Shown here: piece by piece, positions 1-14,569 of the stretch
How positions within the stretch are numbered: position 1 is the stretch's first letter
Layout of the letters: each line of letters starts with the position of its first letter
Virus record (IMG/VR): IMGVR_UViG_3300045988_147738
Coordinates: 1 to 38,431 of that record
Source of the DNA: a virus
Direction: 5' to 3' (one strand)
Length of the DNA: 38,431 bases
Made by a program: the position numbers and the translations under genes
Notes under the pieces: model-generated
What the model saw: only the letters and a program-made list of their open reading frames with translations
Databases searched by the model: none
What the model was told of the DNA's origin: nothing

Positions 1-74
1 AAATGATTATGGTAGAATGATGATATTGATAAAAGAAAATGATTATGGTAGAATGATGATATTGATAAAAGAAA
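1..74. repeat. 36-bp tandem direct repeat (two full copies and a partial third) containing TTGATA and TGGTAGAAT promoter-like hexamers
   Basis: aatgattatggtagaatgatgatattgataaaagaa is repeated back to back at positions 3-38 and 39-74. Confidence 0.8.
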
Positions 75-242
75 ATGATAGAAGTTTGGTGCCCCCGCTC
101 GGTACCAACTCATCACTCAATTTCATCATTATCGTCATCCTCTGAATTTTTCAAGATACCCTTTCCAAAAAACGTCGAGCCCAGGTATTCTAATCGCCAA
201 TTTCCCAAATAAAAAATACCTGGGCCGACACGTTAATCGAAA

Positions 243-617
243 TTAAATGCGAGAAATCCAGTCGTTGAGGATTTCATCTACGGTTTTGCCCTTCTTAATC
301 GCACCCTTAGAGTTCGTCTCAAAACGGAAACCGGGGAGCTCAATCTTGAAGTTGCCTGGGTCCTTGTAGAATTTAAGGAAACTGTCCATTACCTTAATGA
401 CATCCTCGCCCTTCAACTCTGCGCCCTTATAGCCGACATAGGCCGCATAGTCGTTGATAGCATCGGCAACCGCTTCCGCTCGGGCCATCTTTTCCTTGTC
501 CTTCTTCTGGTCAGCATATGCCTTAGTGGCGTCATTCAGCATTGCAGTCATTTCCTTAGCAATATCCTCAGCGCTCTCGCCATTCATTAAACGCGTCAGA
601 ATATCGTTCTTATCCAT
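243..617 (-). CDS. hypothetical protein (124 aa)
   Basis: Intact ORF with ATG start, TAA stop and an AAGAGG ribosome-binding site. Two tandem TTGACA/TTGACT-N17/18-TATAAT promoters lie at 640-715 on the minus strand. Confidence 0.6.
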   Translation of the reverse strand: MDKNDILTRLMNGESAEDIAKEMTAMLNDATKAYADQKKDKEKMARAEAVADAINDYAAYVGYKGAELKGEDVIKVMDSFLKFYKDPGNFKIELPGFRFETNSKGAIKKGKTVDEILNDWISRI

Positions 618-847
618 TAAAATAACCTCTTTTCATTTTGTATACATATATTATACAAAAAATTTTTTTAAAAGTCAAGCGAGAAAAAAAATGGTTTTTT
701 TTATCATTATAACATAAATTTTTTTTTATGTCAAACCGGGCGGCATATGGGTACCGAGCGGGGCTCGGGTTTTGGGAAAATATGGGTGCATATGAGGGTC
801 GCTAGAATCACGGAAAATTTTCCATATGGGGTGGGAGAATGGAAATT

Positions 848-919
848 CGGACCGCAGCGCCCGCGCTCGGCCCGTTGTACCTCCCCTTTTATTATACCAC
901 ACCGGGCCCGCGTTGTCAA
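848..919. promoter_or_regulatory. promoter-hairpin module copy 1 (minus-strand TTGACA-N17-TGGTATAAT followed by an imperfect GC hairpin)
   Basis: Reverse complement of 891-919 reads TTGACAacgcgggcccggtgtggTATAAT. Hairpin at 848-875. A bidirectional terminator sits immediately to the right at 941-961. Confidence 0.6.
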
Positions 920-940
920 TAGGCAAAATGAACAAAAATT

Positions 941-961
941 AAGGGTGGATTTCTCCACCCT
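941..961. terminator. intrinsic terminator hairpin GGGTGGA-ttt-TCCACCC, with a T-run on the minus strand
   Basis: Perfect inverted repeat followed on the minus strand by TTAATTTTTGTT. Confidence 0.6.
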
Positions 962-1170
962 TAACAGAAGTTGTCAAAAATGTCATCAGACACTTGGCAC
1001 TCATACCAGCCGAAATATTCCCGGCGTGAGCGGAGTTCGCCCTCGATTTCATCCTCGTCTATGTCGGGATTTTGTATGTGGAGATACTGGATGACCCAGT
1101 GCTCGCTCGCGCATACATTCTCGTCAGCGTTGAAGTAAAATTTAGGGGTCACGATTATTCCTCCTCCCAC
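961..1170 (-). CDS. small acidic hypothetical protein; the likely GTG start at 1152 gives about 63 aa
   Basis: ORF ends in TAA. GGGAGGAGG ribosome-binding site 7 nt upstream of the GTG at 1150-1152, overlapping the stop of the upstream HD gene, which suggests translational coupling. Confidence 0.5.
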   Translation of the reverse strand: MGGGIIVTPKFYFNADENVCASEHWVIQYLHIQNPDIDEDEIEGELRSRREYFGWYECQVSDDIFDNFC

Positions 1171-1766
1171 GGCAGTTCGGGCGAAATTTCGTCCAGTTCC
1201 GCCTTGTCGTTATAGTCGGCGTTGATTGCTGGAATGTCGATAAACGCTCGGCTTGCCACATAGTCAGCCATGTGTACCAGTCTGTCGATAGGAGTGAAAG
1301 GTCTGTCCGCCTTGTCGGTAGTCCACTGACCCATGTGAGACTTGATGGCTTGCGTCAACTCATAGGGGCAGTCGCTCTCGAAAAACACCATCCATGTGCG
1401 GCAAACTTGGTCAGCGGCAATCGCGCCGTGCTTGGGGTACAACTCCTTGTCGAACTCGTGTAAGCCATACTTGGCTGTATCGTGGAGCAGACAGGCAACT
1501 CTTGCGTAGTCCTTGCGCTCGTCAGTGAGATACGCCCACTGGCTCATGCGGAGCAATTCCTCACAAAACCACGCGACCGCCTTAGTGTGGCGCACCAAAC
1601 CGCCCTCGCCTTGGCTCATAGCCGGATGGAACTTGCCGGAAGAACTCGCGCCGATAGTCCAGAAATAGTCGGGAACAATACAGTCGAAGTAGTAGCGCAC
1701 GAATGAGCGCAAATCCTCAGACTGAATGAACTCGATTTCGTGGTCAAAAAACTGGCTCTTATTCAT
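1155..1766 (-). CDS. HD-domain metal-dependent phosphohydrolase
   Basis: Motifs HTKAVAWF, LLHDTAKY and HMADYVASR match the HD superfamily H..HD..D pattern. Start chosen at MNKSQFF because of a GGAGG ribosome-binding site; the track's longer ORF runs into the promoter module. Confidence 0.65.
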   Translation of the reverse strand: MNKSQFFDHEIEFIQSEDLRSFVRYYFDCIVPDYFWTIGASSSGKFHPAMSQGEGGLVRHTKAVAWFCEELLRMSQWAYLTDERKDYARVACLLHDTAKYGLHEFDKELYPKHGAIAADQVCRTWMVFFESDCPYELTQAIKSHMGQWTTDKADRPFTPIDRLVHMADYVASRAFIDIPAINADYNDKAELDEISPELPWEEE

Positions 1767-1889
1767 AGATGCCTCCGTGCTGTTGGTGGGTTCCAGCTCC
1801 CTCAGATTGTTTATAGTATAGCGCATTTCGGGACAAAATGCAATAGTCAATTTATACAAATTTTCACCGGAAAAATTGTTGAAAATGTG

Positions 1890-1962
1890 TATTGACAAAA
1901 ATGCCGGGCGCCACAATCGTGAACGCCCGACCCATTATACCACAGTCAGAGGGCGTTGTCAA
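1890..1962. promoter_or_regulatory. promoter-hairpin module copy 2
   Basis: Minus strand reads TTGACAacgccctctgactgtggTATAAT, then hairpin GGGCG-ttcacgattgtg-GCGCCCG. Near-identical to copy 7 at 11226. Confidence 0.65.
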
Positions 1963-1983
1963 TAGTCAAATTGAATAAAAAAA

Positions 1984-2537
1984 TTATACTAAATTTTTTA
2001 TCATTTGTAAGGTTTTATCATACCCATATTTTTCAAGTAAACGAGTGATTTCTTTATCAAAAGGTTTTCTATTTTCAAAATTTAATTTTATATTTTCTTC
2101 ATTTATTACCCATCTTAAATTTTCAAGTCTATTATCTGTTTTTATTCCATTGATGTGGTCAACAACTAAATTGTTCGCATTTATATTTGTTTGAAAAGTA
2201 TTTAATACAAGTCTATGAATTCTATATTTTTTCTTATTTGGTAAATTTAAATATAAATATCCATTATTTAATACCCCTTTATAAAATACACCATCTTTTT
2301 TAATACGCCCCATTGTAGATATTAAATAGTCTGGTAAATCATAACACTGTTTCCATTCTTCATCAGGTAAATCCTAGGTTTCATCTTTTATAATATTATA
2401 ATAATTAGTGTGATTACGTTTTTCTATAAATACTAATTCAATTCCACGTCTTTTACAAAAAGCGATAAAAATATTTTTATCTACTCGTGAAGTTGTTAAA
2501 TTATATTTTTCTATAATTTCTTTTGTTGATAACATTA
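1984..2537 (-). CDS. HNH homing endonuclease (HNH_3-type) with one in-frame TAG at 2376-2378; AT-rich insert
   Basis: C-terminal region YRIHRLVLNTF...NLVVDHINGIKTDNRLENLRWV is a canonical HNH motif. Reading through TAG joins it in frame to an upstream 56-aa HTH-like region and an EEWK...GRIKKDG motif, with an AAGGAGG ribosome-binding site before the ATG at 2537. About 25% GC inside a 50% GC region. Confidence 0.7.
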
Positions 2538-2570
2538 TAGAACCTCCTTTAATATTCTATTATATTTAAA

Positions 2571-2628
2571 AAAACACACAAAATCATTACCCTGTTTTGT
2601 CCTGGGTAATGATTTTGTGTGTTTTATT
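2571..2628. terminator. long perfect hairpin (19-bp stem) flanked by an A-run and a T-run; bidirectional terminator
   Basis: ACACACAAAATCATTACCC-tgttttgtcc-tGGGTAATGATTTTGTGTGT. Confidence 0.7.
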
Positions 2629-3022
2629 ATAGGGCGATTTGGTAAGTTCGACGAATGGTAATTTCAACAGATTTCGGCTTCACAGGACAGGCAAATCTGT
2701 CATTTCTCACAAACACGCCGTATCCCTTTTTCTGCCAGTTCTCACGATTTTTGTCCTCGTATCGCAAAGTGTTATACTTGGAGAGCGGTAGCGAAAAATC
2801 GTAAATAAATTCAGAATTGTGCGGTAAACGGTGAACGGCGGTCTTGCGGTAGTTTCTTGTGTGTTCCTGCTGTCTACGCTTTAAGTCGTTAGTCGTGCCT
2901 ATTTTCAGAATGTAGACACCATTTTCATCATAATAGTGTCCAACATACAAAAATTCCTTGTTTTTCACACTTTTTTCCTCATTTTCTGGGGAAAATGGGG
3001 GATTTCTCCCCCATTTTCTCAA
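2627..3022 (-). CDS. GIY-YIG (T5orf172-like) domain protein
   Basis: FLYVGHYYDENGVYILKIGTTNDLKRRQQEH fits the GIY...YIG...R...E nuclease motif. The start is uncertain: TTG at 3022 or a downstream GTG with a GAGGA ribosome-binding site. Confidence 0.5.
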   Translation of the reverse strand: MRKWGRNPPFSPENEEKSVKNKEFLYVGHYYDENGVYILKIGTTNDLKRRQQEHTRNYRKTAVHRLPHNSEFIYDFSLPLSKYNTLRYEDKNRENWQKKGYGVFVRNDRFACPVKPKSVEITIRRTYQIAL

Positions 3023-3417
3023 CTTTTCGGCTTGCGCTTCTGCACAAGGGTCAGTTCATAGGAATTTTCACCAACCGAAAATGCAATCTGTCTCTCTTTA
3101 TTAGTTATTTCCACATTTTCGCAGGCATTTTCGCTGTTTTCGGTCAAAAATGTTGCGAGTTCAGCGATAATGGACGCTTTCGTGGGATTTGCCTTGCGTT
3201 CCCTTGTGGTGAATTTGTATGCGGTGGGGGTCTTGCGTGTGCCAGTCTTAGCGAATTTCTGTGCGACTTTGAGCTGTTCTTTCGACAGGTCAAAATCCTG
3301 TGCCTTACCCTTGTCGATTTCTCGGTCAGAGTTCCACACGGCTTCCGCTTCATCGGCAGTCCAGCCCATTTTCGCCATAGCGTTTTTCAGCCATTCGGTT
3401 TTGGAGATTTCAGCCAT
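3019..3417 (-). CDS. hypothetical protein (132 aa), paralog of 5565-5921
   Basis: Shares KTPTAYKFTTRERKANPTKASII with RQPTAYKFAPRERKANLTKQGII in the paralog. TGA stop. Confidence 0.6.
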   Translation of the reverse strand: MAEISKTEWLKNAMAKMGWTADEAEAVWNSDREIDKGKAQDFDLSKEQLKVAQKFAKTGTRKTPTAYKFTTRERKANPTKASIIAELATFLTENSENACENVEITNKERQIAFSVGENSYELTLVQKRKPKS

Positions 3418-3478
3418 AAAACACCGCCTTTTCAGATTTTAGAGGAGAGAGGGGGAGAGGTTATCTCCCCCTCTTGTC

Positions 3479-3976
3479 TCACTTGGCGGTGAAATACGCC
3501 TTGCGCTTATCCTCGATACGGTCTGCCTGACCGTCCAGCACCATCTGACGCACCAGAGAAGAAACCTTCTGATTGGACGCATCGGCGATAGCGGGGACAG
3601 ACTTCATCAGAGCGGACACGGTGTACTTCTCGCCCTTGTGGGCGTCCAGAAACGCCTTGATGTCAGCCTTGATACCCTCGTTTGCCACCTGCATGGCGGT
3701 CGGCTTCTTGTCCACGGTGTTCTTGCGGTCGAGCAGTTCCAGCTCGTGGTTCAGGAAGCCCGCCACATCAGCACCGGAAACCTTGACAGTGGCATCACCC
3801 TTGGAAATGTCATAGGTGGCGTCCATATCCACCTTGGACAGAATGGCGGTGAAATAGTCGCGCTTGGTCAGACGAACAGAGGAAGTGGTGTTAGTCATAG
3901 TATCAACCCTTTCTGCGTTTTTAGGTGTCGCCCACCATATTGTTGTTTCCCTCTTGGAACATCTATATTCTAACAC
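3479..3976 (-). CDS. hypothetical protein (165 aa), paralog of 5973-6374
   Basis: Shares LLDRKNTVDKKPT and SNQKVSSLVRQMVLDGQADRIEDKRKAYF with the paralog. A GC hairpin at 3440-3472 separates it from the downstream gene, as in the other copy. Confidence 0.6.
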   Translation of the reverse strand: MLEYRCSKRETTIWWATPKNAERVDTMTNTTSSVRLTKRDYFTAILSKVDMDATYDISKGDATVKVSGADVAGFLNHELELLDRKNTVDKKPTAMQVANEGIKADIKAFLDAHKGEKYTVSALMKSVPAIADASNQKVSSLVRQMVLDGQADRIEDKRKAYFTAK

Positions 3977-4163
3977 ATATCCGAAGCCTTGTCAAGACTT
4001 TTTTTCGGATTTGTGGAATTTTTTTAAGGTACACGCCCCGCCGGGAGGTCTTACCCTCTCCCTTGGAACAATTATATATTACCACACCCTTGGGCAAATT
4101 ACAATAGTCAATACTCACAAAAAAATGGGATTTTCAACATCTAAAATTTGTGCAAAAAAACAC

Positions 4164-4259
4164 TTGACAAAATTTGTGCCACGTGGTATAATGGAAATTT
4201 CGGGCGCCACATCCGTGAGCGCCCGACTCATTTTAACACATTTGAGCGCATTTGTCAAT
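4164..4259. promoter_or_regulatory. promoter-hairpin module copy 3: convergent plus and minus consensus promoters flanking a GC hairpin
   Basis: Plus strand reads TTGACA(4164)-N17-TATAAT(4187). Hairpin GGGCGCC-acatccgtga-GCGCCCG at 4202-4225. Minus strand reads TTGACA(rc 4254-4259)-N17-TAAAAT. Confidence 0.7.
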
Positions 4260-4299
4260 AGGCAATTTGCACAAAAATAAACCAGCGTAGTTGGCTACT

Positions 4300-4625
4300 A
4301 CGCTGGTTCCCCTGTTGATACTCGCCAGCCGTCCGGACAGCCAGCCCACTTCTACACAGCAGACCTAATCAGACGGGCGCAATGCCCACATAGATGGTCT
4401 TTCTCGGCACGCGGTGAATGTGGTTAGAACTTCGTACCCAGTCCCAATTTCTAACGAGGGGTTCAAGATAGCGTTTGAGAAGAAACTGTCGAGGGGACAA
4501 ACACTCTGTTAAAATCCATCTTGGCCGGGGAATTAAATATAATCAATCATTAAACTATCTAATCAAACAATGATTGACTACTAAGGTGGTCGATACAATC
4601 GCCATTTCATTTTTCTCACCTCACA
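4300..4625 (-). ncRNA. candidate noncoding RNA or long leader: an ORF-free interval between a consensus minus-strand promoter and a terminator
   Basis: No ORF longer than 10 codons has a ribosome-binding site. A minus-strand promoter at 4631-4660 (reverse complement TTGACAaatcgccccgcctgtgcTATACT) and the minus terminator hairpin at 4283-4310 bracket it. The plus-strand promoter of module 3 also reads into this interval. Confidence 0.35.
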
Positions 4626-4668
4626 ATATTAGTATAGCACAGGCGGGGCGATTTGTCAAGAGTTTTTT

Positions 4669-5352
4669 TCAAAACTCTAACTCGTCCCGAACGCCATAGC
4701 CGGAGAAATCGAGGATAACAGGAGAAATGCCAATGTACCCAATGTTTGAGCCGTGGAGGTCGTTTATGTGATACTTCTTGACGAACTCACAGAGGGCGAT
4801 AACCTTGCGCTTACCGTGGAGGGAAACGGCGACTTTTGCCCACAATCCATCAAGGTTGCGCCCATAGCCATTTTGGTCTGCCTTGCGGAACTGCCGTTCA
4901 ATCTGATTAACTCGGCAATCAGGAACAGTCTTTGCGATACGGATAAGACGATTTTTCAGCCCATCCTCTTGCCAGCAGATTTTATGAGCACAGTTGGTGA
5001 TAATCTGTTGAGCGGTGAACGCAATCGCTTCGCCATCACGAGGAGAAACAATGTAGCCAGCCAACATAGTGGCGGGGAAAAAATCAGCGAGGTTTGCGTC
5101 TACGGCTTTCTGATACACAGCCACTTCGCGCTCTGCGTCCCGCGTCTCCATAGACCATTTGAGAACATAGCCCAGCTCAGGAAACACCAGACATTCCTTG
5201 GTCGCGCCGTTGCTGGTGACTATCTTGACATTAGGGTATTCGTTGTGGATAACGCGGCACAGACTGTCTGCCTGTCTGACCAGTCTCGGCTTTTCAGATA
5301 CCGCCTGCTGAATGGTCAGGATAAAATCCTGAACTCTCGGAAACTCCATCAT
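4669..5352 (-). CDS. putative protein-kinase-like (APH/ePK-fold) protein
   Basis: HINDLHGSNIGY...ILDFSG resembles a kinase catalytic loop (HxDLHxxN) followed by a DFG-like motif. GAAAGGAG ribosome-binding site. Weak assignment. Confidence 0.35.
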   Translation of the reverse strand: MMEFPRVQDFILTIQQAVSEKPRLVRQADSLCRVIHNEYPNVKIVTSNGATKECLVFPELGYVLKWSMETRDAEREVAVYQKAVDANLADFFPATMLAGYIVSPRDGEAIAFTAQQIITNCAHKICWQEDGLKNRLIRIAKTVPDCRVNQIERQFRKADQNGYGRNLDGLWAKVAVSLHGKRKVIALCEFVKKYHINDLHGSNIGYIGISPVILDFSGYGVRDELEF

Positions 5353-5429
5353 TCATCGCTCCTTTCAGTATCATCATTATAGCACATTACAGGAGAATTA
5401 CAATAGGCAAAATGCACAAAATTTTGCGG

Positions 5430-5523
5430 AAAAAATTTCTGAAATTGTATAATGTGCCGAAAACCGGGCGCCAGGACCGTAAGCGCCCGGCCAAATTATA
5501 CCACACGCGCTCGGATTTGTCAA
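5430..5523. promoter_or_regulatory. promoter-hairpin module copy 4
   Basis: Minus strand reads TTGACAaatccgagcgcgtgtggTATAAT, then hairpin GGGCGCC-aggaccgtaa-GCGCCCG. A plus-strand TATAAT lies at 5448. Confidence 0.65.
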
Positions 5524-5564
5524 TAGGCAAAATACACAAAAAAAATGAGGGAGATTTCTCTCCC

Positions 5565-5921
5565 TCACTTGCGCGGGCAACTAAGCACAACCTTATATTT
5601 TGTTCCATCAAGCGTGAATAAAAATTCGCGCTCCGCGTTGCTCACGTTCAGGTCAGTCGCGCCGTATGTGGTCAGTGTCTCGGTCAGCAAGGTGATAATG
5701 CCTTGCTTCGTAAGATTAGCCTTTCTTTCTCTTGGCGCGAACTTGTATGCGGTCGGCTGGCGTCCTACTCCACGCGCTTTCTTGCTTGCCTTTTCCTGTT
5801 CCTCGGTCAGCGGAAACGGATTGCCGCCCTTGTCGATGATAGCATCTTGAACAATAATGTCCTTTGCTTCGGCTTCGGTACAATCCAGCTTTCGCATGAG
5901 GTCGGCAACTCGGTCAGTCAT
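5565..5921 (-). CDS. hypothetical protein (118 aa), paralog of 3019-3417
   Basis: See the paralog. TGA stop. Confidence 0.6.
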   Translation of the reverse strand: MTDRVADLMRKLDCTEAEAKDIIVQDAIIDKGGNPFPLTEEQEKASKKARGVGRQPTAYKFAPRERKANLTKQGIITLLTETLTTYGATDLNVSNAEREFLFTLDGTKYKVVLSCPRK

Positions 5922-5972
5922 GCGGTACTCCTTTCAGGGTTAGGGTGGGGAGCAATCCCCACCCTTTGAGGT

Positions 5973-6374
5973 TTACGCGCTCACCTTGCGGAAGAACGCC
6001 TTGCGCTTGTCCTCCACGCGCTCCACCTGCTTATCCAGCACCATCTGCCGGACGAGGGAGGACAGCTTCTGATTGCTCATGTCCTTACAGACGGGGAACT
6101 CTTTGAGCATCTCGCTGATGGAATACAGCCGGTTGCTCTCCATAGCGGACAGGACAGAGGTCTTGATAACCTCATTCTCCTGCTGGGTCTTGGTGGGCTT
6201 CTTGTCCACGGTGTTCTTGCGGTCGAGCAGGTCGATTTCGTGGGTGATGAACTCCACCAGCTTGGGGTCAGCCTTGACCTCGGACAGCTTGAGCAGGGCG
6301 GTGAAATTGTCGCGCTTGGTGGGCTTACGGGTGGCGGTGTTAGTGTTAGCCATAGTATCAATTCCTTTCTCCAT
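5973..6374 (-). CDS. hypothetical protein (133 aa), paralog of 3479-3976
   Basis: See the paralog. Proximal promoter at 6399-6450 (reverse complement TTGACAatcccagcgcaagctgtTATAAT). A GC hairpin at 5936-5962 lies between the two genes of the cassette. Confidence 0.6.
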   Translation of the reverse strand: MEKGIDTMANTNTATRKPTKRDNFTALLKLSEVKADPKLVEFITHEIDLLDRKNTVDKKPTKTQQENEVIKTSVLSAMESNRLYSISEMLKEFPVCKDMSNQKLSSLVRQMVLDKQVERVEDKRKAFFRKVSA

Positions 6375-6454
6375 TTGGTTTTGAGGGCTTTACCCTCCTG
6401 ACATTATCTATTATAACAGCTTGCGCTGGGATTGTCAAGACTTTTTTTCAAAAT

Positions 6455-6900
6455 TCTTGATTTTTTTTAATAGTGTCAACAGGGGAACGTCCCACAAGTA
6501 TTCACAACGACTTACAACCTCGCCTGACGAATAAGGTGTTGCTTGTTGGTTCAACGTTTCCATGCGCATGGACGAACTGACCAATCCACTCACTTTTCGT
6601 TCATCGTTTGGGATTACTGCGCTGGTATAGGGCTTACTTCCTTTACTCTCTCACGGTTCGCGACCCGTGGATTTCTTGGGTGGGGCTGTTCCCCTCTTGA
6701 CATTATCAATTATAGCACAGGTGCTGGGGATTGTCAAGAGGGAATTTGCGGGTCAGTTACCGAGTTATCACACCCGCCAGCGTGGCTCTTGCGAGGCGAC
6801 TTGCTGTTCCCTCTTGACATTATGTAGTATAGCACAGGTGGGTATGGATTACAATAGGCAAACTATACAAGTTTCGGGAAAAATAAATAAAAAAATTTAT
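6455..6900 (-). ncRNA. ORF-free interval driven by two tandem minus-strand promoters; candidate noncoding RNA(s)
   Basis: Promoters at 6715-6745 (reverse complement TTGACAatccccagcacctgtgcTATAAT, embedded in the palindrome CCTCTTGACA-N28-TGTCAAGAGG) and 6810-6845. No ORF in 6470-6700 has a ribosome-binding site. The 16-mer GTTCCCCTGTTGAYAC is shared with the interval at 4307. Confidence 0.3.
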
Positions 6901-6912
6901 GTAAAAAAACTC

Positions 6913-7007
6913 TTGACAAAATTGCTGGCGGGGTGTATAATGGTGAATTCCGGCCGAGACGCGCGAAATCGGCCGGCCATTATACCACACCCAGGCACAT
7001 TTGTCAA
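6913..7007. promoter_or_regulatory. promoter-hairpin module copy 5
   Basis: Plus strand reads TTGACAaaattgctggcggggtgTATAAT. Hairpin GGCCG-agacgcgcgaaat-CGGCC. Minus strand reads TTGACAaatgtgcctgggtgtggTATAAT. Confidence 0.7.
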
Positions 7008-7022
7008 TAGGTAAAAATGCAC

Positions 7023-7056
7023 AAAAAATGAGGGGAAAATCCCCTCATTTTTTTAG
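7023..7056. terminator. bidirectional intrinsic terminator
   Basis: aaaaaATGAGGGGAaaaTCCCCTCATttttttt. Confidence 0.7.
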
Positions 7057-7586
7057 TCCATCTGACAAGCGAGAAATGTGTCCCGCTTTTCGTTCAGTTT
7101 GACGATTTCGCCCGCCAGCGCATCAGCCCTCATAGCCAACAGACGCCCATAGCCCTTGCGCCAGTTCAGCATACCATCGGGATTGACCGTGTAAATGAGC
7201 TTCTCCTTTTCCACGGTCTTGGTGTCCTTGCACTCCGTGCGGAAATCCTGTCCATTCATAGCCAGCAGAGCGTTCTGCGCCACTCCCGGCAAACGCATCC
7301 AGTCATACTCGGTCATCAGAGCGTTGCCATCCTTGTCAATCATCCAGATTTCCGCTTCCCACGGGTCAATCTTGATTTCCTTGGTGCTTTTCTCGGTGCG
7401 TACCACCTTGATGATACCCTCGTCCCGCAGGAACGACAGGGAATTGTAGGTGTACCGCCGGTAGTCGTGCTTTGCCTTGGAGAAGTCCTCGGAAGTGAAC
7501 TCCTTGTTTCCGAATAGGTCTACCAGCCACTTGTAGGTCTTGACCGTGCGGTTGAAATTGTGAACATTGGCATAGCGAGCTTTCAT
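7053..7586 (-). CDS. hypothetical protein (about 177 aa)
   Basis: Start taken at MKARYANVHNF with an AAAAGGAG ribosome-binding site. Upstream promoter reads TTGACAacgcccccattccatgcTATAAT, with its -35 inside the terminator loop at 7660-7690. Confidence 0.55.
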   Translation of the reverse strand: MKARYANVHNFNRTVKTYKWLVDLFGNKEFTSEDFSKAKHDYRRYTYNSLSFLRDEGIIKVVRTEKSTKEIKIDPWEAEIWMIDKDGNALMTEYDWMRLPGVAQNALLAMNGQDFRTECKDTKTVEKEKLIYTVNPDGMLNWRKGYGRLLAMRADALAGEIVKLNEKRDTFLACQMD

Positions 7587-7699
7587 AGTTTTTTCTCCTT
7601 TTCTGTTGGTGGGGCTTACCATCGTTTCCCCTACCTTGAATTTGTAATGTTATTATAGCATGGAATGGGGGCGTTGTCAACCCCCATTCCAAACTTTTT

Positions 7700-7912
7700 T
7701 TACGGGGTGTCGTGCTTGCGGTATTCAGTCAGGTCAGGGTCGCCAATCCATTCCGAAAAGTCAACCCAGTAGTCGAATTCATGGAGAATGGTAGTTTCCT
7801 CGCCCTCGAATACTCCACCACAGCAGGCACAAATGACATTTCCGTCATCAGTCTGAATACCCGCCTGAACGCCATCTGAATGGTCGCTCTTAAACAGAAC
7901 TTGCTTCGGCAT
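7700..7912 (-). CDS. small Cys-containing hypothetical protein (70 aa)
   Basis: AAGGAGG ribosome-binding site. Promoter at 7935-7975 (reverse complement TTGACAgtccctttctcatgtggTATAAT). Confidence 0.55.
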   Translation of the reverse strand: MPKQVLFKSDHSDGVQAGIQTDDGNVICACCGGVFEGEETTILHEFDYWVDFSEWIGDPDLTEYRKHDTP

Positions 7913-7979
7913 TTCGCTTACCTCCTTATTTCAGTATAGTCATTATACCACATGAGAAAGGGACTGTCAAGCCCCAATC

Positions 7980-8636
7980 TCAAAACTTGGGAAAACATTT
8001 TACCTCAAAGGGTGCGTCCCATGCGTGGACGTTCTTGGTGTATCGCTTGTGCATCTTCTGACAGGCAAGGAAAATTTCCATTTCCTGCATAGCGTCAGAC
8101 AGGGCGGTGTGTTCTTCCTCAAAGTCAGGATTGCCGTGGAGATAGCCATACACCGCTTCGACAGAGGTTGCACAGGTCTTGCCATTCTTGGAACGCTTGC
8201 CATGCTCTCGGCAATATTCCGCATAGGACTTCTTGTGGGTGATAGTTTCCAGTGCCATAAGATACAGGTCGATGAACTCGAAAGTGTCCAGCAGGTCGCG
8301 GAAACAGGTCTTGCAGAAGTCAAAACCGGAATTGTATGCCATCACATAGCGAACGCCGTAATGGTCGCACAGGTTTTTGATTACCTCATAGGCTTCGCGC
8401 TCCGTGGCGATAGCGGAGATTTCACCAGCTTTGAGCCGTTCGGCATACTTGGGAAAATTCTTCTTGGCATAGCCATCGGTGGCGATTTCGTCATAATGCT
8501 CCATCACCAGCAGGGAAGTGGTGGCAAGGATTTCGCCCTTGCGGTCGTGGATAATCGCGCCCACATTATACATTCCCGTGGGGTGAGCCGCACCGCCTAC
8601 CGTTTCAGTGTCCAGCGTGCAGTAGATATTTTTCAT
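7980..8636 (-). CDS. DEDDh-family (DnaQ-like) 3'-5' exonuclease
   Basis: Exo I motif CTLDTETVGG, Exo II motif YNSGFDF and Exo III motif HTALSDAMQEMEIF. AAAAGGAG ribosome-binding site. Confidence 0.65.
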   Translation of the reverse strand: MKNIYCTLDTETVGGAAHPTGMYNVGAIIHDRKGEILATTSLLVMEHYDEIATDGYAKKNFPKYAERLKAGEISAIATEREAYEVIKNLCDHYGVRYVMAYNSGFDFCKTCFRDLLDTFEFIDLYLMALETITHKKSYAEYCREHGKRSKNGKTCATSVEAVYGYLHGNPDFEEEHTALSDAMQEMEIFLACQKMHKRYTKNVHAWDAPFEVKCFPKF

Positions 8637-8748
8637 TGTTCATTCTCCTTTTCTCTTGGTTGGGCTTACCATCGTGTCCCATACCTTAATTACATTACAT
8701 ATTATAGCAAATAGGGGCGAGATTGTCAACCCCTATTTGCTATTTTTT

Positions 8749-9194
8749 TTACAGGTTGCGCAGAATTTCCATAAGCAGGTCGGCATTGTATGCCATATTA
8801 TGGGTGTTTGCCGTCCACTCGTTGAGGTTGCGCTGTTCATCATCGAATAGAATAGACGCGGGGCAGGTGGCGCAGGTGGACTTGGGGACGCCATAGGGGA
8901 CAATATGGATTTCGTCCCACTGAACGCTGGGGAGATGCTTTGCCAGCCATTCTCGCTTGACCTCGGCTACTTCGGCATTGAACTTATCCGTTCCGCTCTT
9001 GGACAGCCAACTGATGATGCCGATATTGTAGCCACGCGCCTGTAAGCGGTTCAGATAGCGGGCGAGGGTGGAGAAGTGGACAAGCGGGCGGGCGTCCGCA
9101 TATACGCTCGTGTCCGCGGCTTCCAGCTTTGCCAGCCAGTTAGGGTCGCCATACAGGTCGGTGATAGTCCCGTCCATGTCCAGATAGATAGTCA
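8749..9194 (-). CDS. HAD-superfamily hydrolase-like protein (possibly a nucleotidase)
   Basis: N-terminal IYLDMDGTITDL matches HAD motif I (DxDGT). Start taken at MTIYLDMDGT with an AAAGGAAG ribosome-binding site. Proximal promoter at 9225-9262 (reverse complement TTGACAaatcgcgttttatcctgTATAAT). Confidence 0.5.
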
Positions 9195-9344
9195 TAGTAT
9201 CAACTTCCTTTCTTGATTGTAATGCTATTATACAGGATAAAACGCGATTTGTCAACAGTTTTTTCAATTCTGCTCTTGGTCATTTCGCACAAATTTTCGG
9301 GATGCGCGCTTGGGCAAATTTGTTCAATTTACCTATTGACAAAA

Positions 9345-9430
9345 TTGCTGGCAGGGTGTATAATGGAAATTTCGAGCGCCAGGGCCGTGGGCGCTCGGCC
9401 GAGTATACCACAAATAGGGGCGTTTGTCAA
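9345..9430. promoter_or_regulatory. promoter-hairpin module copy 6
   Basis: Plus strand reads TTGACAaaattgctggcagggtgTATAAT. Hairpin GCGCC-agggccgtgg-GCGC. Minus strand reads TTGACA-N17-TATACT. Confidence 0.7.
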
Positions 9431-9442
9431 TAGGTAAAATGA

Positions 9443-9475
9443 ACAAAAAAAATCTCCCAAATTTGGGAGATTTTT
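9443..9475. terminator. bidirectional terminator
   Basis: aaaaaaaaTCTCCCAaatttGGGAGAttttt. Confidence 0.7.
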
Positions 9476-9481
9476 CATTTA

Positions 9482-9696
9482 TTAACTCTTGACAGTGACG
9501 CGGAAGATGGAGCGCAGGATTGCGACAATGAGCCAAACCACCAGCACCAGTTTCCACGAGAACGCGATAACGAAAGAGCCGATGGACACGATGCCAATGG
9601 CGGGGAGAAGCCAGCAGAGAAGCCAGACCAGTCCAGCAGAGAACAGGAAGTCGATGCCAAGGCATACCAGTACCAAAAACAGAGCAGTAAACATTT
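9482..9696 (-). CDS. small membrane protein (about 71 aa, 2 predicted transmembrane helices)
   Basis: Hydrophobic MFTALFLVLVCLGIDFLFSAGLVWLLCWLL... AAGGAGGA ribosome-binding site before the internal ATG. Confidence 0.5.
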
Positions 9697-9707
9697 GTTG
9701 TTCCTCC

Positions 9708-9857
9708 TTAATAAATTTGTTCGCCGTTGTGGTAGCGTTCGTATCTCGCTTCAAGGAAGTCGAAAATGAACTCGAAGTCGTCCGCGTCCGCGGGGTCTAC
9801 GAACGTCTTTTCAAGGATTTCGCCAGTGTGGTCATTGAAAACTTTAATCATTTCCAT
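9708..9857 (-). CDS. small acidic hypothetical protein (about 49 aa)
   Basis: AGGGAGGA ribosome-binding site before MEMIKVFNDHTGEIL. Confidence 0.45.
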   Translation of the reverse strand: MEMIKVFNDHTGEILEKTFVDPADADDFEFIFDFLEARYERYHNGEQIY

Positions 9858-9923
9858 TTTGTTGTCCTCCCTTATTTGATGATACCATTCTAACACAGAG
9901 GGGCTGATTTGTCAACCCCTATT

Positions 9924-10394
9924 TTACAAATTTTTGCTTTCTGCCACGAAATATTTTGCGCCATATTGCGCCACAATGTCTTTGACCTTTTTGCTCTCGG
10001 CTTGCGTGGCACAATAGAAATTGAATAGCGTGTGTTTATTGCTAATCTCAATGTATGAATGGGGAATGTCTCGCAGGTCAAAATCCACAGCGGCACGATA
10101 CTTTGTGGGGACAGTCATTTCAATCTTCCACAATTTTTCCTTGCGCGCCAGCTCTTCCACCCACTTAACCGCCAGTACACCGATGAAATTACAGGCGGCG
10201 GTGATGCTCATTTTTGCCAGTGTAGAAACGCCGTCAATGTTGGTTAGGATAATGACATAGGAATAGAAGCCATAGGTCAGCGCATTGATACCGGCGGCTA
10301 CCCACTTATTGCCTTTGACAGTCAGAATGGATTTGATGGTGGACAGCACCACATTGATAGCGGTACAGACAATGAATAGGATAATTGCGTTCAT
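9924..10394 (-). CDS. membrane protein: N-terminal 3 transmembrane helices plus a C-terminal soluble domain (about 157 aa)
   Basis: Start at MNAIILFIV with an AAAGGAG ribosome-binding site. Promoter TTGACA-N17-TATTAT at 10415-10455 on the minus strand. Confidence 0.5.
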   Translation of the reverse strand: MNAIILFIVCTAINVVLSTIKSILTVKGNKWVAAGINALTYGFYSYVIILTNIDGVSTLAKMSITAACNFIGVLAVKWVEELARKEKLWKIEMTVPTKYRAAVDFDLRDIPHSYIEISNKHTLFNFYCATQAESKKVKDIVAQYGAKYFVAESKNL

Positions 10395-10536
10395 AATCAT
10401 CACTCCTTTTTCAGTATAATAATAATAACACATTTAATTGAAAATGTCAAGAAAAATTTTTGTCGTAGTTAAATTCTCACAAGATTAGATTTTTGTTCCG
10501 TGTAGTTAGTCAGGACTAAACCCAACAAGAGGGGCG

Positions 10537-10908
10537 TTAATGCCCCTCCGTCAGTTTATTATACATACTCCACAGCGTATCACAGGAATTGTTTGTGTTT
10601 TCAGCCATCCATACAATTTGTTCATCAGTCGGCAGGTATTTATCATTTTGAAAACCAAACCATCTATCACAGGACTGATACGCCTTATACTCGTCCTCTG
10701 TCAGCTTGCCACGCAACCACCAGTCCCAGCGGATAGAACTTATCAGAGTATACGCGCACGCGCCCGCGATAGTCAGGGTCAGGATGGCGACAGCCCCGTA
10801 CAGCACCAGCGTGGACTTTATCATACCATACACCAGCAGACCGAAACCGCACACAATGAGGAAATTGCACACCCATTTTTTGAGCGTCAGTTTCTGAAAA
10901 TCAGACAT
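10537..10908 (-). CDS. membrane protein (123 aa, 2 predicted transmembrane helices)
   Basis: AAGGAG ribosome-binding site. The stop codon lies inside the hairpin GAGGGGCgttaaTGCCCCTC. Confidence 0.5.
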   Translation of the reverse strand: MSDFQKLTLKKWVCNFLIVCGFGLLVYGMIKSTLVLYGAVAILTLTIAGACAYTLISSIRWDWWLRGKLTEDEYKAYQSCDRWFGFQNDKYLPTDEQIVWMAENTNNSCDTLWSMYNKLTEGH

Positions 10909-11119
10909 TTTCTCTACTCCTTAACATATTGTCGCAAAATTCATTGGAGAACTTCTCAGCGAAATCATCATCATAGGCGCGATTGGCAATGACTTCCATA
11001 ACCGTACTGATGCCGGACATAAAGTAGGGATTGCCATTGATGGTGTCATACCGCCCTTGGAACATAGGGCATTCACGCAGGTCTGCGAAAACCATCTGAT
11101 ACGCTTTCTTCAACTCCAT
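10901..11119 (-). CDS. hypothetical protein (72 aa)
   Basis: AAGGAGG ribosome-binding site. Overlaps the downstream gene start by 8 nt. Promoter at 11140-11200 (reverse complement TTGACTtctatcccgtaatacggTATAAT). Confidence 0.5.
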   Translation of the reverse strand: MELKKAYQMVFADLRECPMFQGRYDTINGNPYFMSGISTVMEVIANRAYDDDFAEKFSNEFCDNMLRSRENV

Positions 11120-11225
11120 TGTTCTTACCTCCTTGTTTCAGTATAGCCATTATACCGTATTACGGGATAGAAGTCAATCGTCAAAATGCACAAAATTGCG
11201 GTGAAAAATTTGTGAAGTATACCTA

Positions 11226-11275
11226 TTGACAAAAATGCCGGGCGCCACAATCGTGAGCGCGCGGCCGAAAATGTC
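11226..11275. promoter_or_regulatory. promoter-hairpin module copy 7 (degenerate, no clear -10)
   Basis: TTGACAaaaatgccGGGCGCCacaatcgtgaGCGCgcggcc is nearly identical to copy 2. Confidence 0.5.
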
Positions 11276-11331
11276 AAGTGGAAAATTATACAAAAATTGG
11301 GCTGGATTTTTGTTCATCCAGCCCAAATGAT

Positions 11332-11538
11332 TTACTTTCCTGATTTCGGCACGAAACCTCGGCAGAATTGACGACACCAGGTGCGCTCGTTCTTTCGCTT
11401 CATACATTTACTCTCACCCATACTGTTCATTACCTTGCCGTGGTTATAACCCCAGTATTCACAGTTGGAGCATCTTACCTTATCAGGCTCTACACAATAG
11501 CGGTCAGCCAGTTCAGTTCTGATTGCAAAAGTAGTCAT
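11332..11538 (-). CDS. Cys-rich small protein (68 aa), possible zinc-binding protein
   Basis: CxxC...C...C spacing. AAGGAGGA ribosome-binding site. Promoter reverse complement TTAACAaaccttttagggtgtgtTATAAT at 11560-11600. Confidence 0.5.
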   Translation of the reverse strand: MTTFAIRTELADRYCVEPDKVRCSNCEYWGYNHGKVMNSMGESKCMKRKNERTWCRQFCRGFVPKSGK

Positions 11539-11601
11539 TCGGGGCGTCCTCCTTCATTTGATGTATTTATTATAACACACCCTAAAAGGTTTGTTAATAA
11601 T

Positions 11602-11636
11602 TAAAATGAAAAATGTGGGATTTCTCCCACATTTTT
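11602..11636. terminator. bidirectional terminator
   Basis: aaaaATGTGGGAtttcTCCCACATttttttt. Confidence 0.7.
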
Positions 11637-11867
11637 TTATTTATTTTCTAACCGCATTTTGTCAGACCCGATAAGCGCAGCCAGCAGGTTTGAGGTATCA
11701 CGGACTTGGCTCATAGAATACTCTTCGCCAATGTTGGAAATAGCGTATTCTTGTTCGTAGTCATACATCAAATCAAAAAGGTGAGAAATAACTTCGCGGG
11801 CGTCTTGGAGTTTGTCCTTTTCCTCTTGGGTGAGTTGAACCTGAACGTTTGAGGTAATGATGTTCAT
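11637..11867 (-). CDS. small acidic protein, member 1 of a tandem paralog triplet (76 aa)
   Basis: AAAAGGAGA ribosome-binding site. Pattern I..V.V.LT.EE...L.DA..V/I..L.DLMYD.E.EY is shared with the next two genes. Confidence 0.5.
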   Translation of the reverse strand: MNIITSNVQVQLTQEEKDKLQDAREVISHLFDLMYDYEQEYAISNIGEEYSMSQVRDTSNLLAALIGSDKMRLENK

Positions 11868-11882
11868 TTGTTTTATCTCCTT

Positions 11883-12113
11883 TTATTTACTACGGATTTC
11901 CACTTTTTCAGTGGGGGCAAGCATTTGAAGCACATTAGCCGTAAGCGCGACATCAACTCTGTCATAGCCATTCCCGCAAGTATCGCTTACATACTCGCAG
12001 TCATTATCGGCGATGATGTCATACAATTCATTGAGAATGTCATAGGCGTCGCGCAGGGTTTTCCGCTCCTTCTCTGTTATTTTGACATAGATGGGGGCTT
12101 TAATAACTTCCAT
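11883..12113 (-). CDS. small acidic protein, paralog 2 (about 76 aa)
   Basis: MEVIKAPIYVKITEKERKTLRDAYDILNELYDIIADNDCEYV aligns with MEFIEAPIYVKLSDEERNSLNEVYTILNDLVNAAEENDCEYV in paralog 3. GAGGGAGG ribosome-binding site. Confidence 0.55.
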   Translation of the reverse strand: MEVIKAPIYVKITEKERKTLRDAYDILNELYDIIADNDCEYVSDTCGNGYDRVDVALTANVLQMLAPTEKVEIRSK

Positions 12114-12127
12114 TTTGTTTCCCTCCC

Positions 12128-12358
12128 TCAATTACTAATTTCTAGTTTTTCAGCAGGTGCGAACACTCGGCAGATTTCAGCAGCTTGGCTGAGGTCAAAC
12201 CGCCCGTAGCCATCGCCAGTCAACGGATTGCCCACATACTCGCAGTCATTCTCTTCGGCGGCGTTTACAAGGTCATTCAGAATGGTATAAACTTCATTGA
12301 GTGAATTGCGCTCTTCATCACTCAACTTGACATAGATAGGGGCTTCAATAAATTCCAT
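12128..12358 (-). CDS. small acidic protein, paralog 3 (about 76 aa)
   Basis: See paralog 2. AAAGGAGA ribosome-binding site. Promoter -35 inside the hairpin at 12395-12425. Confidence 0.55.
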   Translation of the reverse strand: MEFIEAPIYVKLSDEERNSLNEVYTILNDLVNAAEENDCEYVGNPLTGDGYGRFDLSQAAEICRVFAPAEKLEISN

Positions 12359-12429
12359 TTTGGCATTCTCCTTTCTCTTGGTATTATCTATTATAGCAGA
12401 AATGGGGCTTGTTGTCAAGCCCCAATTTT

Positions 12430-12753: not shown

Positions 12754-12754
12754 A

Positions 12755-12931: not shown

Positions 12932-13049
12932 TGTGAATGACCTCCTTTAATTGATGGTATAAGTATAGCACACCTACTGGGCGTTGTCAACCGTCAAATT
13001 GCACAAATTTTGGGATAAAAAATTGTTGAAAATACCGAACACAAAACGC

Positions 13050-13145: not shown

Positions 13146-13223
13146 TAGGCAAAATCACCAAAATTTTCAACCGAATTATGGGCATAATGCCATATAAAAA
13201 AAACAAGGGCTTTCGCCCTTGTC

Positions 13224-14562: not shown

Positions 14563-14569
14563 TTCCTCC

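What the first reader, a model, noticed from the sequence alone, without database searches (positions are those of the whole stretch)
1984..2628. AT-rich HNH homing-endonuclease island carrying a sense TAG inside the GC-rich, otherwise TAG-free early region
The HNH gene is about 25% GC in a 50% GC neighbourhood, consistent with a mobile homing-endonuclease insertion. It has an in-frame TAG at 2376-2378 that joins its N-terminal HTH-like and EEWK...GRIKK motif to the HNH catalytic core. A 19-bp-stem perfect hairpin (2571-2628) follows it. So this endonuclease apparently uses the late-region code, and would be full length only once a suppressor is active. The adjacent GIY-YIG gene (2627-3022) is a second nuclease of the homing-endonuclease type.
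Basis: partly seen in the sequence, partly recalled or inferred. Interest (0 to 1): 0.6.

Follow-up and report, generated by a model that had tools for sequence, protein, structure and literature searches.

The report
Mobile HNH nuclease gene needing amber read-through
A 646-bp selfish DNA-cutting-enzyme gene has inserted between two early genes of a large gut phage, and it can only be translated in full when the phage's late-stage reading of the stop codon TAG as glutamine is active; this is a clear new example of an idea already proposed for other recoded phages.

Summary
Window 1985-2630 (minus strand) is a 22.5%-GC island among ~50%-GC genes. It holds one 183-codon frame (ATG 2535 to TAA 1984) broken only by TAG at codon 54 (2376-2374). 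Twenty-plus metagenome contigs carry orthologues. All keep the frame free of TAA, TGA and frameshifts. TAGs sit at different codons (6, 13, 14, 16, 54, 63, 188) and swap with CAA/CAG at codons 54 and 63. dN/dS is 0.07-0.41 upstream of the internal Met. So TAG is a sense (Gln) codon here, as in the window's late genes. It is not a nonsense mutation, and the protein does not start at MGRIKK. Five close relatives have an empty site: the island replaces 13 bp of the neighbour gene's terminator and brings its own covarying 22-bp terminator hairpin. The HNH gene is 90% identical between lineages whose flanking genes are saturated at synonymous sites, which indicates recent horizontal spread. The AlphaFold model (pLDDT 93.5) best matches I-HmuI. 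Corrections: the hairpin lies upstream of the gene, and the neighbouring "GIY-YIG" gene is a resident T5orf172-like gene, not a demonstrated homing endonuclease. No suppressor tRNA was found, and late timing is inferred. Borges et al. proposed the same logic for a TGA-recoded intron endonuclease.

The parts
1985..2630 (-). Mobile island (about 646 bp), in order: terminator hairpin, -10-like box, ribosome-binding site, HNH reading frame.
   Evidence: It is absent from relatives L021-L025, where 13 bp (CGATTGAGGGCGA) stand in its place. GC is 22-23% against ~50% in the flanks.
1984..2535 (-). HNH homing-endonuclease gene, 183 codons with TAG read as Gln. Domains in order: N-terminal helix-helix-beta-hairpin domain, NUMOD4-type beta region, HNH core, long C-terminal helix.
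   Evidence: Pfam HNH_3 scores 37.4 bits (cut-off 24.8) and NUMOD4 19.8 bits. PHROG HNH families reach E = 5e-26. The AlphaFold model has pLDDT 93.5 and pTM 0.81. The best PDB match is I-HmuI 1u3e, E = 1.8e-5. D126, H127, N135 and N148 are invariant in the 22-sequence family alignment; D126, H127 and N135 are also invariant among 56 homologues.
2374..2376 (-). In-frame TAG, codon 54, read as glutamine.
   Evidence: Allele L020 has CAA at this codon. TAGs sit at other codons in other alleles, and none has TAA, TGA or a frameshift.
2571..2625 (-). Intrinsic-terminator hairpin with a 22-bp stem and 11-nt loop, followed by a run of 7 T (2574-2568, the first four of them inside the stem). It ends the upstream transcription unit and insulates the HNH gene.
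   Evidence: dG is -39.2 kcal/mol, z = -8.1. Seven of 22 pairs show compensatory double changes among 7 alleles, the loop GGACA is invariant, and the T-run is conserved.
2543..2564 (-). Conserved TATAAT box (2564-2559) with no good -35, and the Shine-Dalgarno AAAGGAGG (2550-2543), 7 nt before the ATG.
   Evidence: Read from the sequence. Both are conserved in all alleles. Allele L032 has a full TTGACT-17-TATAAT promoter here.
2627..2968 (-). Resident upstream gene, 113 aa, T5orf172-like (GIY-YIG superfamily motif). Its 3' end and native terminator form the insertion site.
   Evidence: T5orf172 scores 21.5-23.9 bits (cut-off 20) in four orthologues, while GIY-YIG is below its cut-off. The gene is present in both empty and occupied genomes. 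Its C-terminus reads QIALD* in empty genomes and QIAL* in occupied ones.
1934..1962 (-). Perfect sigma70-type promoter (TTGACA-17-TATAAT, with TG) of the next early gene (HD-domain protein, 1155-1766). It begins 22 nt after the HNH stop codon.
   Evidence: It belongs to an array of about 30 near-consensus promoters on the minus strand of 1-18 kb.

Best explanation
Window 1985-2630 is a free-standing homing-endonuclease cassette. It sits in the early, host-code region of a roughly 197-kb gut phage whose late genes read TAG as glutamine.

The cassette has four parts on the minus strand. First comes a strong intrinsic terminator, which replaces the native terminator it destroyed on insertion. Then come a -10-only promoter-like box and a strong ribosome-binding site. 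Last is a 183-codon gene for an I-HmuI-like HNH (NUMOD4 + HNH_3) nuclease with an extra N-terminal winged-helix-like domain.

The gene is written in the phage's late dialect: GC3 is 0.12, and one amber codon lies between the N-terminal domain and the nuclease. Shown here: the island is an insertion polymorphism with exact borders; it has spread recently between diverged phages to the same site; the whole frame, including the part before the TAG, is under purifying selection; and TAG alternates with CAA/CAG among alleles.

Inferred: while host release factor 1 reads TAG as stop, ribosomes release a 53-residue fragment with no nuclease. Once amber suppression is established (in the nearest described recoded group, phAss-1, by phage tRNA-Sup-CTA), the full nuclease is made. 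It then nicks or cuts the empty site (around AAATCGCTCTCGATTGAGGGCGATTTTTTT) in co-infecting relatives, and repair copies the cassette in. The upstream terminator and the amber codon together keep the nuclease low or off early in infection. Whether that delay is selected, or is merely a by-product of residing in TAG=Gln phages, is open.
For: Single frame and domains.

TAG positions vary by allele (6, 13, 14, 16, 54, 63, 188), with CAA/CAG at codons 54 and 63 in other alleles, and no TAA, TGA or frameshift in any of seven allele groups on more than 25 contigs.

dN/dS is 0.07-0.41 for codons 1-73 and 0.06-0.17 for codons 74-183.

Empty sites in L021-L025 with base-level junctions.

HNH dS is 0.27 while flanking genes have pS 0.73-0.86 between the window and L001 lineages. 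High identity starts and ends at the island borders (79/94 and 497/552 inside; 23/39 and 36/63 outside).

Terminator energy and covariation.

Late genes need TAG as a sense codon (TerL has 10 TAGs, portal 8). In TerL, TAG aligns with Gln of the standard-code relative Enterococcus phage H1 at 4 of 10 sites, two of them also Gln in Geobacillus E3, including the conserved YQR motif.

TAG share of Gln-like codons is 0/78 in early genes, 56/198 in late genes and 1/4 in the HNH gene.

The model is confident across the TAG position and matches I-HmuI.

Other AT-rich endonuclease genes in the early regions of relatives also carry TAGs (a SegE-like gene has 6).

Nearest described recoded relative: phAss-1, TAG to Gln, three tRNA-Sup-CTA genes: and PMC10607447.

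The same idea was published for a TGA-recoded intron endonuclease in Agate phages: 10.1101/2021.08.26.457843.
Against: No tRNA of any kind was found in the window, in the close relatives' loci, or with a Gln-type CTA anticodon-arm pattern in the relatives' contigs. Only about 85 kb of the ~197-kb genome type was examined.

Nothing here measures when the gene is transcribed or translated.

With TAG at 28% of Gln-like codons in late genes, one or two TAGs per allele is what neutral usage predicts. The data therefore do not show that the amber codon is selected as a timer.

Some early-region endonuclease genes in relatives have no TAG (the 172-aa HNH in L016/L017). One ordinary early gene (HD in L025) has one.

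Cleavage activity and the target site are not shown.
Confidence: 0.8

Rival explanations
1. Same element, but the amber codon has no regulatory role. The cassette circulates only among TAG=Gln phages, so CAA/CAG-to-TAG changes are neutral synonymous drift. Expression is governed by the terminator and promoter alone.
For: TAG share in the HNH gene (1 of 4) equals the late-gene average of 28%. TAG positions turn over freely among alleles. Some sister endonuclease genes have no TAG.
Against: All seven allele groups examined keep at least one TAG, and each has one in the first third of the frame. GC-rich early neighbours avoid TAG almost completely (2.8% in the family-wide crude count). Whatever its origin, an amber codon must block full-length synthesis while release factor 1 is unopposed.
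Confidence: 0.35
2. The gene is a decaying pseudogene: the TAG is a nonsense mutation in a dead endonuclease.
For: Under the standard code the frame is broken, and gene callers split it into 53 + 109 aa.
Against: Purifying selection acts on both sides of the TAG. There is no TAA, TGA or indel in any allele down to 37% identity. TAGs fall at different codons that are Gln elsewhere. Catalytic residues are invariant. The gene has spread horizontally in the recent past.
Confidence: 0.02
3. Two separate products by design: a 53-aa DNA-binding protein ending at TAG, and a nuclease starting at Met75 (MGRIKK).
For: An ATG exists at 2313 and a 109-aa ORF follows. The N-terminal 53 residues form a compact helix-helix-hairpin unit in the model.
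Against: Met75 is not conserved; it is Q, Y, L, F, K or T in homologues. No Shine-Dalgarno sequence precedes it. Starting there would cut the NUMOD4 sheet in half. In other alleles the TAG is at codon 6, 13, 14 or 16, which would yield peptides of only 5-15 residues.
Confidence: 0.03
4. Assembly chimera: an AT-rich fragment from another genome was joined into a GC-rich contig.
For: The composition changes abruptly at both borders.
Against: The same island with the same junctions occurs on more than 15 independent contigs from different samples and assemblers. The genome-wide GC step is also reproduced in independent IMG/VR contigs.
Confidence: 0.01

Closest known systems
I-HmuI, the intron-encoded HNH nicking homing endonuclease of Bacillus phage SPO1 (PDB 1U3E)
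   Same: It is the best structural match (Foldseek E = 1.8e-5, 29% identity over 121 columns). Both have an N-terminal NUMOD4-type beta sheet followed by an HNH beta-beta-alpha core with the D-H...N...N residues.
   Different: The window's gene is free-standing in an intergenic site, not in an intron. It has an extra N-terminal helix-helix-hairpin domain and one long C-terminal helix, instead of I-HmuI's C-terminal helices plus helix-turn-helix. Its gene contains a sense TAG.
Group I intron endonuclease in an early gene of TGA-recoded 'Agate' phages (Borges et al., bioRxiv 10.1101/2021.08.26.457843, published 2022)
   Same: A homing endonuclease located in an early, standard-code region carries recoded stop codons. 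The authors proposed that this prevents production until late in infection.
   Different: That case is TGA read as Trp and is intron-encoded. This one is TAG read as Gln, free-standing, with an exact empty site, its own terminator, and allele-level TAG/CAR exchanges documented.
Phage T4 free-standing and intron homing endonucleases (mobE, segF, I-TevI-III; review PMC2988022)
   Same: The same layered restraint of a selfish nuclease: terminators at or in front of the gene, weak or late promoters, and translation restricted to late times. Phage 25 seg43(25) has a very stable hairpin just upstream of the ribosome-binding site, as here.
   Different: T4 delays translation by sequestering the ribosome-binding site in early transcripts. 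Here the proposed block is a stop codon that becomes a sense codon.
phAss-1 / 'Phassvirus' group of TAG-to-Gln gut phages (PMC10607447)
   Same: It is the only described TAG-recoded phage among the listed terminase matches (terminase large subunit 44% identical). TAG is read as Gln in virion and packaging genes, and it carries phage-borne tRNA-Sup-CTA genes.
   Different: The window's lineage is larger (~197 kb against 136 kb). It has a sharp two-compartment composition (GC3 0.61 early, 0.21 late). Its suppressor tRNA has not been located.

Membership tests
HNH_3 / NUMOD4 homing endonucleases (I-HmuI-like) | HNH_3 domain above the curated threshold | tested here: met
   PF13392 scores 37.4 bits against a cut-off of 24.8, residues 104-148.
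HNH_3 / NUMOD4 homing endonucleases (I-HmuI-like) | NUMOD4 motif N-terminal to the HNH core | tested here: inconclusive
   PF07463 scores 19.8 bits, below the 23.4 cut-off, but covers profile positions 1-48 of 49 at residues 59-98. Many homologues carry a precomputed PF07463 hit.
HNH_3 / NUMOD4 homing endonucleases (I-HmuI-like) | Catalytic His and metal-binding Asn/Asp residues conserved | tested here: met
   D126, H127, N129, D134, N135 and N139 are invariant among 56 homologues; N148 is invariant in the 22-sequence alignment.
HNH_3 / NUMOD4 homing endonucleases (I-HmuI-like) | Fold similarity to a solved member | tested here: met
   The model (pLDDT 93.5) matches I-HmuI 1u3e_M at E = 1.8e-5, probability 1.00.
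HNH_3 / NUMOD4 homing endonucleases (I-HmuI-like) | Presence/absence polymorphism at a fixed site, and phylogeny discordant with the flanks (mobility) | tested here: met
   Empty sites in L021-L025. HNH dS is 0.27 against saturated flanks.
HNH_3 / NUMOD4 homing endonucleases (I-HmuI-like) | Site-specific nicking or cleavage of the empty allele | not testable with these tools
   This needs purified protein and the L021-type target DNA.
TAG-to-Gln (code 15) recoded phage | Essential late genes are intact only if TAG is a sense codon | tested here: met
   TerL has 10 in-frame TAGs, portal 8 and the sigma-like gene 4. PHROG matches span the TAGs.
TAG-to-Gln (code 15) recoded phage | TAG aligns with Gln in standard-code homologues or alleles | tested here: met
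   In TerL, 4 of 10 TAGs align with Q in Enterococcus phage H1 (two of them also Q in Geobacillus E3), including the YQR motif. In the HNH gene, codons 54 and 63 alternate between TAG and CAA/CAG.
TAG-to-Gln (code 15) recoded phage | Phage-encoded amber suppressor tRNA (anticodon CUA) | tested here: inconclusive
   None was found in the window, in close relatives' loci covering about 85 kb of a ~197-kb genome, or by a pattern scan. A CTA tRNA is present in a distant relative, L131.
GIY-YIG homing endonuclease (claim for the adjacent gene 2627-3022) | GIY-YIG catalytic domain above threshold | tested here: not met
   PF01541 scores 13.5-15.5 bits against a cut-off of 22.6 in four orthologues. 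Only T5orf172 passes, at 21.5-23.9 against 20, and it covers about a third of the profile.
GIY-YIG homing endonuclease (claim for the adjacent gene 2627-3022) | Presence/absence polymorphism or discordant divergence | tested here: not met
   The gene is present in both occupied and empty genomes. Its divergence equals that of the flanks (pS 0.86). Only L026 has a different gene in that slot.
Rho-independent terminator (hairpin 2571-2625) | Stable stem-loop followed by a U-tract, with the structure conserved by covariation | tested here: met
   dG is -39 kcal/mol, z = -8, followed by U7. Seven of 22 pairs have compensatory changes. Termination itself was not measured.

The most novel reading that the evidence does not exclude
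Amber gating may be a selected containment device for selfish nucleases in recoded phages. On this reading, every allele of this cassette is kept with at least one N-proximal TAG, so that no active nuclease can be made before the code switch or in any standard-code genome it strays into. The gate would then act as both a timer and a host-range lock. The cassette's conserved hairpin loop (GGACA) would be an operator or antitermination site that couples its transcription to the same switch.
Probability: 0.25. Interest if true: 0.7.

Novelty: new member of a known kind. Interest (0 to 1): 0.5.

Why it matters
This is a clean natural test case for the proposal that stop-codon recoding times gene expression in phages. 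The gene's product is harmful if made at the wrong time. It sits among standard-code early genes yet is written in the late code. Empty and occupied genomes and many alleles are available for comparison.

It also shows how a selfish cassette can insert into a terminator without cost, by bringing a replacement terminator.

For annotation, standard-code gene callers split this gene into 53 + 109 aa, whereas code-15 callers write the TAG as Q. Database proteins of this family therefore hide the recoded codon.

Tried and rejected
1. Megablast of window 1-8000 against GenBank phages found no match.

2. Suppressor tRNA hunt. ARAGORN was run on the window and on all fetched loci. Rfam found nothing in the window. 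phAss-1 1-50 kb has no tRNA. An exact probe from a relative's tRNA-Lys matched only its own contig. I walked one step along contig IMGVR_UViG_3300045988_140174. A Gln-type CTA anticodon-arm pattern gave 79 hits, none in the close relatives' contigs. Result: not found. The coverage is too small to call it absent.

3. I looked for a shared late-promoter motif in front of late genes and the HNH gene. Only a bare TATAAT was found, identical to the -10 box of the early promoters, so there is no evidence for a late promoter.

4. A family-wide count of TAG in mechanically called ORFs was confounded by spurious antisense ORFs. The strand-restricted version is still crude and is used only as a rough figure.

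5. I considered and rejected a pseudogene, a two-protein design, a start at Met75, and an assembly chimera (see rivals).

6. I considered the 118-aa 'homing endonuclease' PHROG gene between the terminase and portal genes as a second mobile element. It is at the same place in about 80 relatives, so it is resident.

7. The weak second hairpin over the ribosome-binding site and AUG in the minimum-free-energy fold is not conserved in allele L001 and was dropped.

Full report
**What is in the sequence**

The feature lies on the minus strand. An ATG at 2535-2533, preceded at a 7-nt distance by AAAGGAGG (2550-2543), opens a frame of 183 codons that ends at TAA 1986-1984. The only interruption is TAG at codon 54 (2376-2374, inside CCTAGG).

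GC content is 22.5% for the gene. The neighbouring genes have 47-56%.

Pfam places HNH_3 at residues 104-148 (37.4 bits, cut-off 24.8). A near-threshold NUMOD4 match covers residues 59-98 and begins five residues after the TAG. There is no ATG, GTG or TTG between the TAG and the EEWK motif. PHROG HNH families match at up to E = 5e-26, and two of them align across the TAG.

An open 73-codon stretch in DNA this AT-rich is unlikely by chance. Only 30 of 20,000 shuffles lack TAA/TGA, and the other two frames of the gene hold 15 and 25 TAA/TGA.

**Is the TAG a sense codon?**

A protein search returned 183-aa 'full-length' homologues with Q at position 54. The DNA shows that those Q residues are themselves TAG, translated by a code-15 gene caller.

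I examined orthologues on more than 25 independent metagenome contigs, falling into seven allele groups with 37-97% protein identity. All of them keep one uninterrupted frame apart from TAG. The TAG positions differ by allele:
- The window type has a TAG at codon 54.
- L018 and L001-L008 have TAGs at codons 54 and 63.
- L020 has TAGs at codons 16 and 63.
- L011-L013 have a TAG at codon 14.
- L031 has a TAG at codon 6.
- L032-L034 have TAGs at codons 13 and 188.

Codon 54 is CAA in L020. Codon 63 is CAG in the window, CAA in L009, and TAG in L001, L018 and L020.

Nei-Gojobori dN/dS is 0.07-0.41 for codons 1-73 and 0.06-0.17 for codons 74-183. The Met of MGRIKK (residue 75) is Q, Y, L, F, K or T in homologues.

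An AlphaFold model built from 56 homologues is confident throughout (pLDDT 93.5, pTM 0.81). It shows an N-terminal helix-helix-beta-hairpin unit, a beta region, the HNH core and a long C-terminal helix. Its only significant PDB match is the SPO1 homing endonuclease I-HmuI (E = 1.8e-5).

These results exclude a pseudogene, a start at Met75 and a two-protein design. TAG is read as an amino acid, and the allelic exchanges point to glutamine.

**The genome's two codes**

From about 18 kb onward, plus-strand genes are intact only if TAG is a sense codon. These include a sigma-factor-like protein, the terminase large subunit, the portal protein and virion proteins.

In the terminase, 4 of 10 TAGs align with Gln of the standard-code relative Enterococcus phage H1, two of them also Gln in Geobacillus E3, including the conserved YQR motif.

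TAG accounts for 56 of 198 Gln-like codons in late genes, 0 of 78 in 23 GC-rich early genes, and 1 of 4 in the HNH gene. GC3 is 0.21, 0.61 and 0.12 respectively.

The early block (1-18 kb, minus strand) carries about 30 near-consensus TTGACA-17-TATAAT promoters. The GC step between the blocks recurs in independent IMG/VR contigs, so it is not a chimera.

The terminase is 52% identical to large Enterococcus phages and 44% identical to phAss-1. phAss-1 is a described TAG-to-Gln phage with three tRNA-Sup-CTA genes (PMC10607447).

**Mobility**

Five IMG/VR relatives (L021-L025) are 90-95% identical to the window in the flanks. They come from contigs of 100-198 kb, two of them about 197.6 kb. All five lack exactly window 1985-2630.

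The junctions, read on the minus strand, are:
- Empty site: ...CAAATCGCTCT CGATTGAGGGCGA TTTTTTTATTCAATTTGAC...
- Occupied site: ...CAAATCGCCCT [646 bp] TTTTTTTATTCAATTTGAC...

The 13 lost bases are the 3' half of a small terminator hairpin belonging to the upstream gene. The C-terminus of that gene changes from QIALD* to QIAL*.

The island begins with its own terminator. It has a 22-bp perfect stem (2625-2604 / 2592-2571), dG -39 kcal/mol, z = -8, followed by U7. Among seven alleles, 7 of 22 stem pairs show compensatory changes, while the loop GGACA and the T-run stay constant.

Between the window lineage and the L001 lineage, the HNH gene is 90% identical (dS 0.27). The flanking genes are 57-65% identical, with synonymous sites saturated (pS 0.73-0.86). 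The high-identity block starts and ends at the island borders.

This is the signature of a homing element that spreads horizontally to one site.

**How it probably works**

Transcripts from the upstream early promoters should stop at the island's terminator. Only a bare TATAAT (2564-2559) lies between the terminator and the ribosome-binding site. The next strong promoter starts 22 nt after the HNH stop codon and serves the HD-domain gene. The gene is therefore transcriptionally insulated.

Any message that is made yields a 53-residue fragment as long as TAG terminates. The full nuclease requires amber suppression, which the late genes of the same genome also require.

I infer that the nuclease appears late or at a low level, and that it attacks the empty site in co-infecting relatives.

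This parallels the layered restraint of T4 homing endonucleases through terminators, late promoters and hairpins that block the ribosome-binding site (PMC2988022). It also repeats a proposal made for a TGA-recoded intron endonuclease in Agate phages (10.1101/2021.08.26.457843).

Other AT-rich endonuclease genes in the early regions of relatives also carry TAGs, for example a SegE-like gene with six. Some carry none.

**What is not shown**

No suppressor tRNA was found in the window or in about 85 kb of the close relatives' genomes.

Timing, cleavage and the target site are inferences.

One or two TAGs per allele is what late-gene usage predicts. Selection for the amber gate is therefore not demonstrated.

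- The TAG coordinates are off by two bases.
- The hairpin stem is 22 bp, and on the coding strand it precedes the gene.
- The neighbouring gene (2627-2968) matches T5orf172 only just above threshold and GIY-YIG below it. It is present in both occupied and empty genomes and diverges like the flanks. It is a resident gene whose 3' end is the insertion site, not a demonstrated second homing endonuclease.
- The early region is not strictly TAG-free, because at least two early ORFs appear to end in TAG with a back-up stop.

**Verdict**

This is a new, well-documented member of a known kind: an HNH homing endonuclease in a TAG-to-Gln phage, with recoded-stop gating as previously proposed. Interest is moderate.

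Noticed in passing
window 1-16200 versus 16200-38431: The genome has two compartments. The first has small minus-strand genes with GC 43-57%, GC3 0.61 and no internal TAG. The second has GC 26-40%, GC3 0.21 and TAG at 28% of Gln-like codons. The same GC step is seen in independent IMG/VR contigs of the family (L037-L109).
   Followed up: partly
window 1-18000, minus strand (e.g. 1962, 5523, 6438, 7007, 7680, 7970, 8729, 9255, 12418, 13475, 14314): About 30 near-consensus sigma70 promoters (TTGACA-17-TATAAT; 15 of them perfect, plus 7 perfect matches on the plus strand) stand in front of almost every early gene. They are embedded in a repeated 60-170-nt intergenic element.
   Followed up: partly
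window 18036-19154 (+): A sigma-factor-like gene (phrog_5767) heads the AT-rich block. It has a perfect host-type promoter but four in-frame TAGs, so its translation would itself depend on amber suppression.
   Followed up: no
window 25792-28527 and 31960-33039 (+): Four virion-type genes inside the TAG-rich block have no TAG at all, and three of them prefer CAG. They include the phrog_4088 capsid-like protein and the phrog_2729 structural protein. Their GC is 0.35-0.41, higher than their neighbours.
   Followed up: no
window 22139-22495 (+): A 118-aa Vsr/DUF2726-like gene, annotated in PHROGs as a homing endonuclease, lies between the terminase and portal genes and has 2 TAGs. It sits at the same place in about 80 relatives, so it is resident rather than mobile.
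   Followed up: yes
window 12430-12807 and 15680-15952 (-); L026 about 9180-9760; L025 10001-10609: Some early genes seem to end in TAG with a TGA/TAA back-up stop 3-5 codons later. One relative's HD gene has an internal TAG at codon 36. The early region is therefore TAG-poor, not TAG-free.
   Followed up: partly
window 2593-2603 (loop of the hairpin) and the same place in L001, L011, L020, L031: The loop sequence GGACA is invariant among cassette alleles while the stem covaries. No explanation was found; it could be a protein-binding site.
   Followed up: no
L014, L015, L016, L017, L022-L024, L012, L034 (slot before the NT5C-like gene); L016 11253-11873: Relatives differ in other endonuclease insertions. 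The same slot holds a 172-aa HNH, a SegE-like GIY-YIG gene (1-6 TAGs), or nothing. A second copy of the window's HNH family (206 aa, 3 TAGs) lies after the HD gene in L016.
   Followed up: partly
window 3019-3417 / 5565-5921 and 3479-3898 / 5973-6374 (-): These are two pairs of paralogous early genes in the same order, which suggests a tandem duplication of a two-gene unit.
   Followed up: no
window 16396-16713 (-): An AbrB/MazE-like small regulator lies in the AT-rich minus-strand stretch and has a TAG at codon 27.
   Followed up: no
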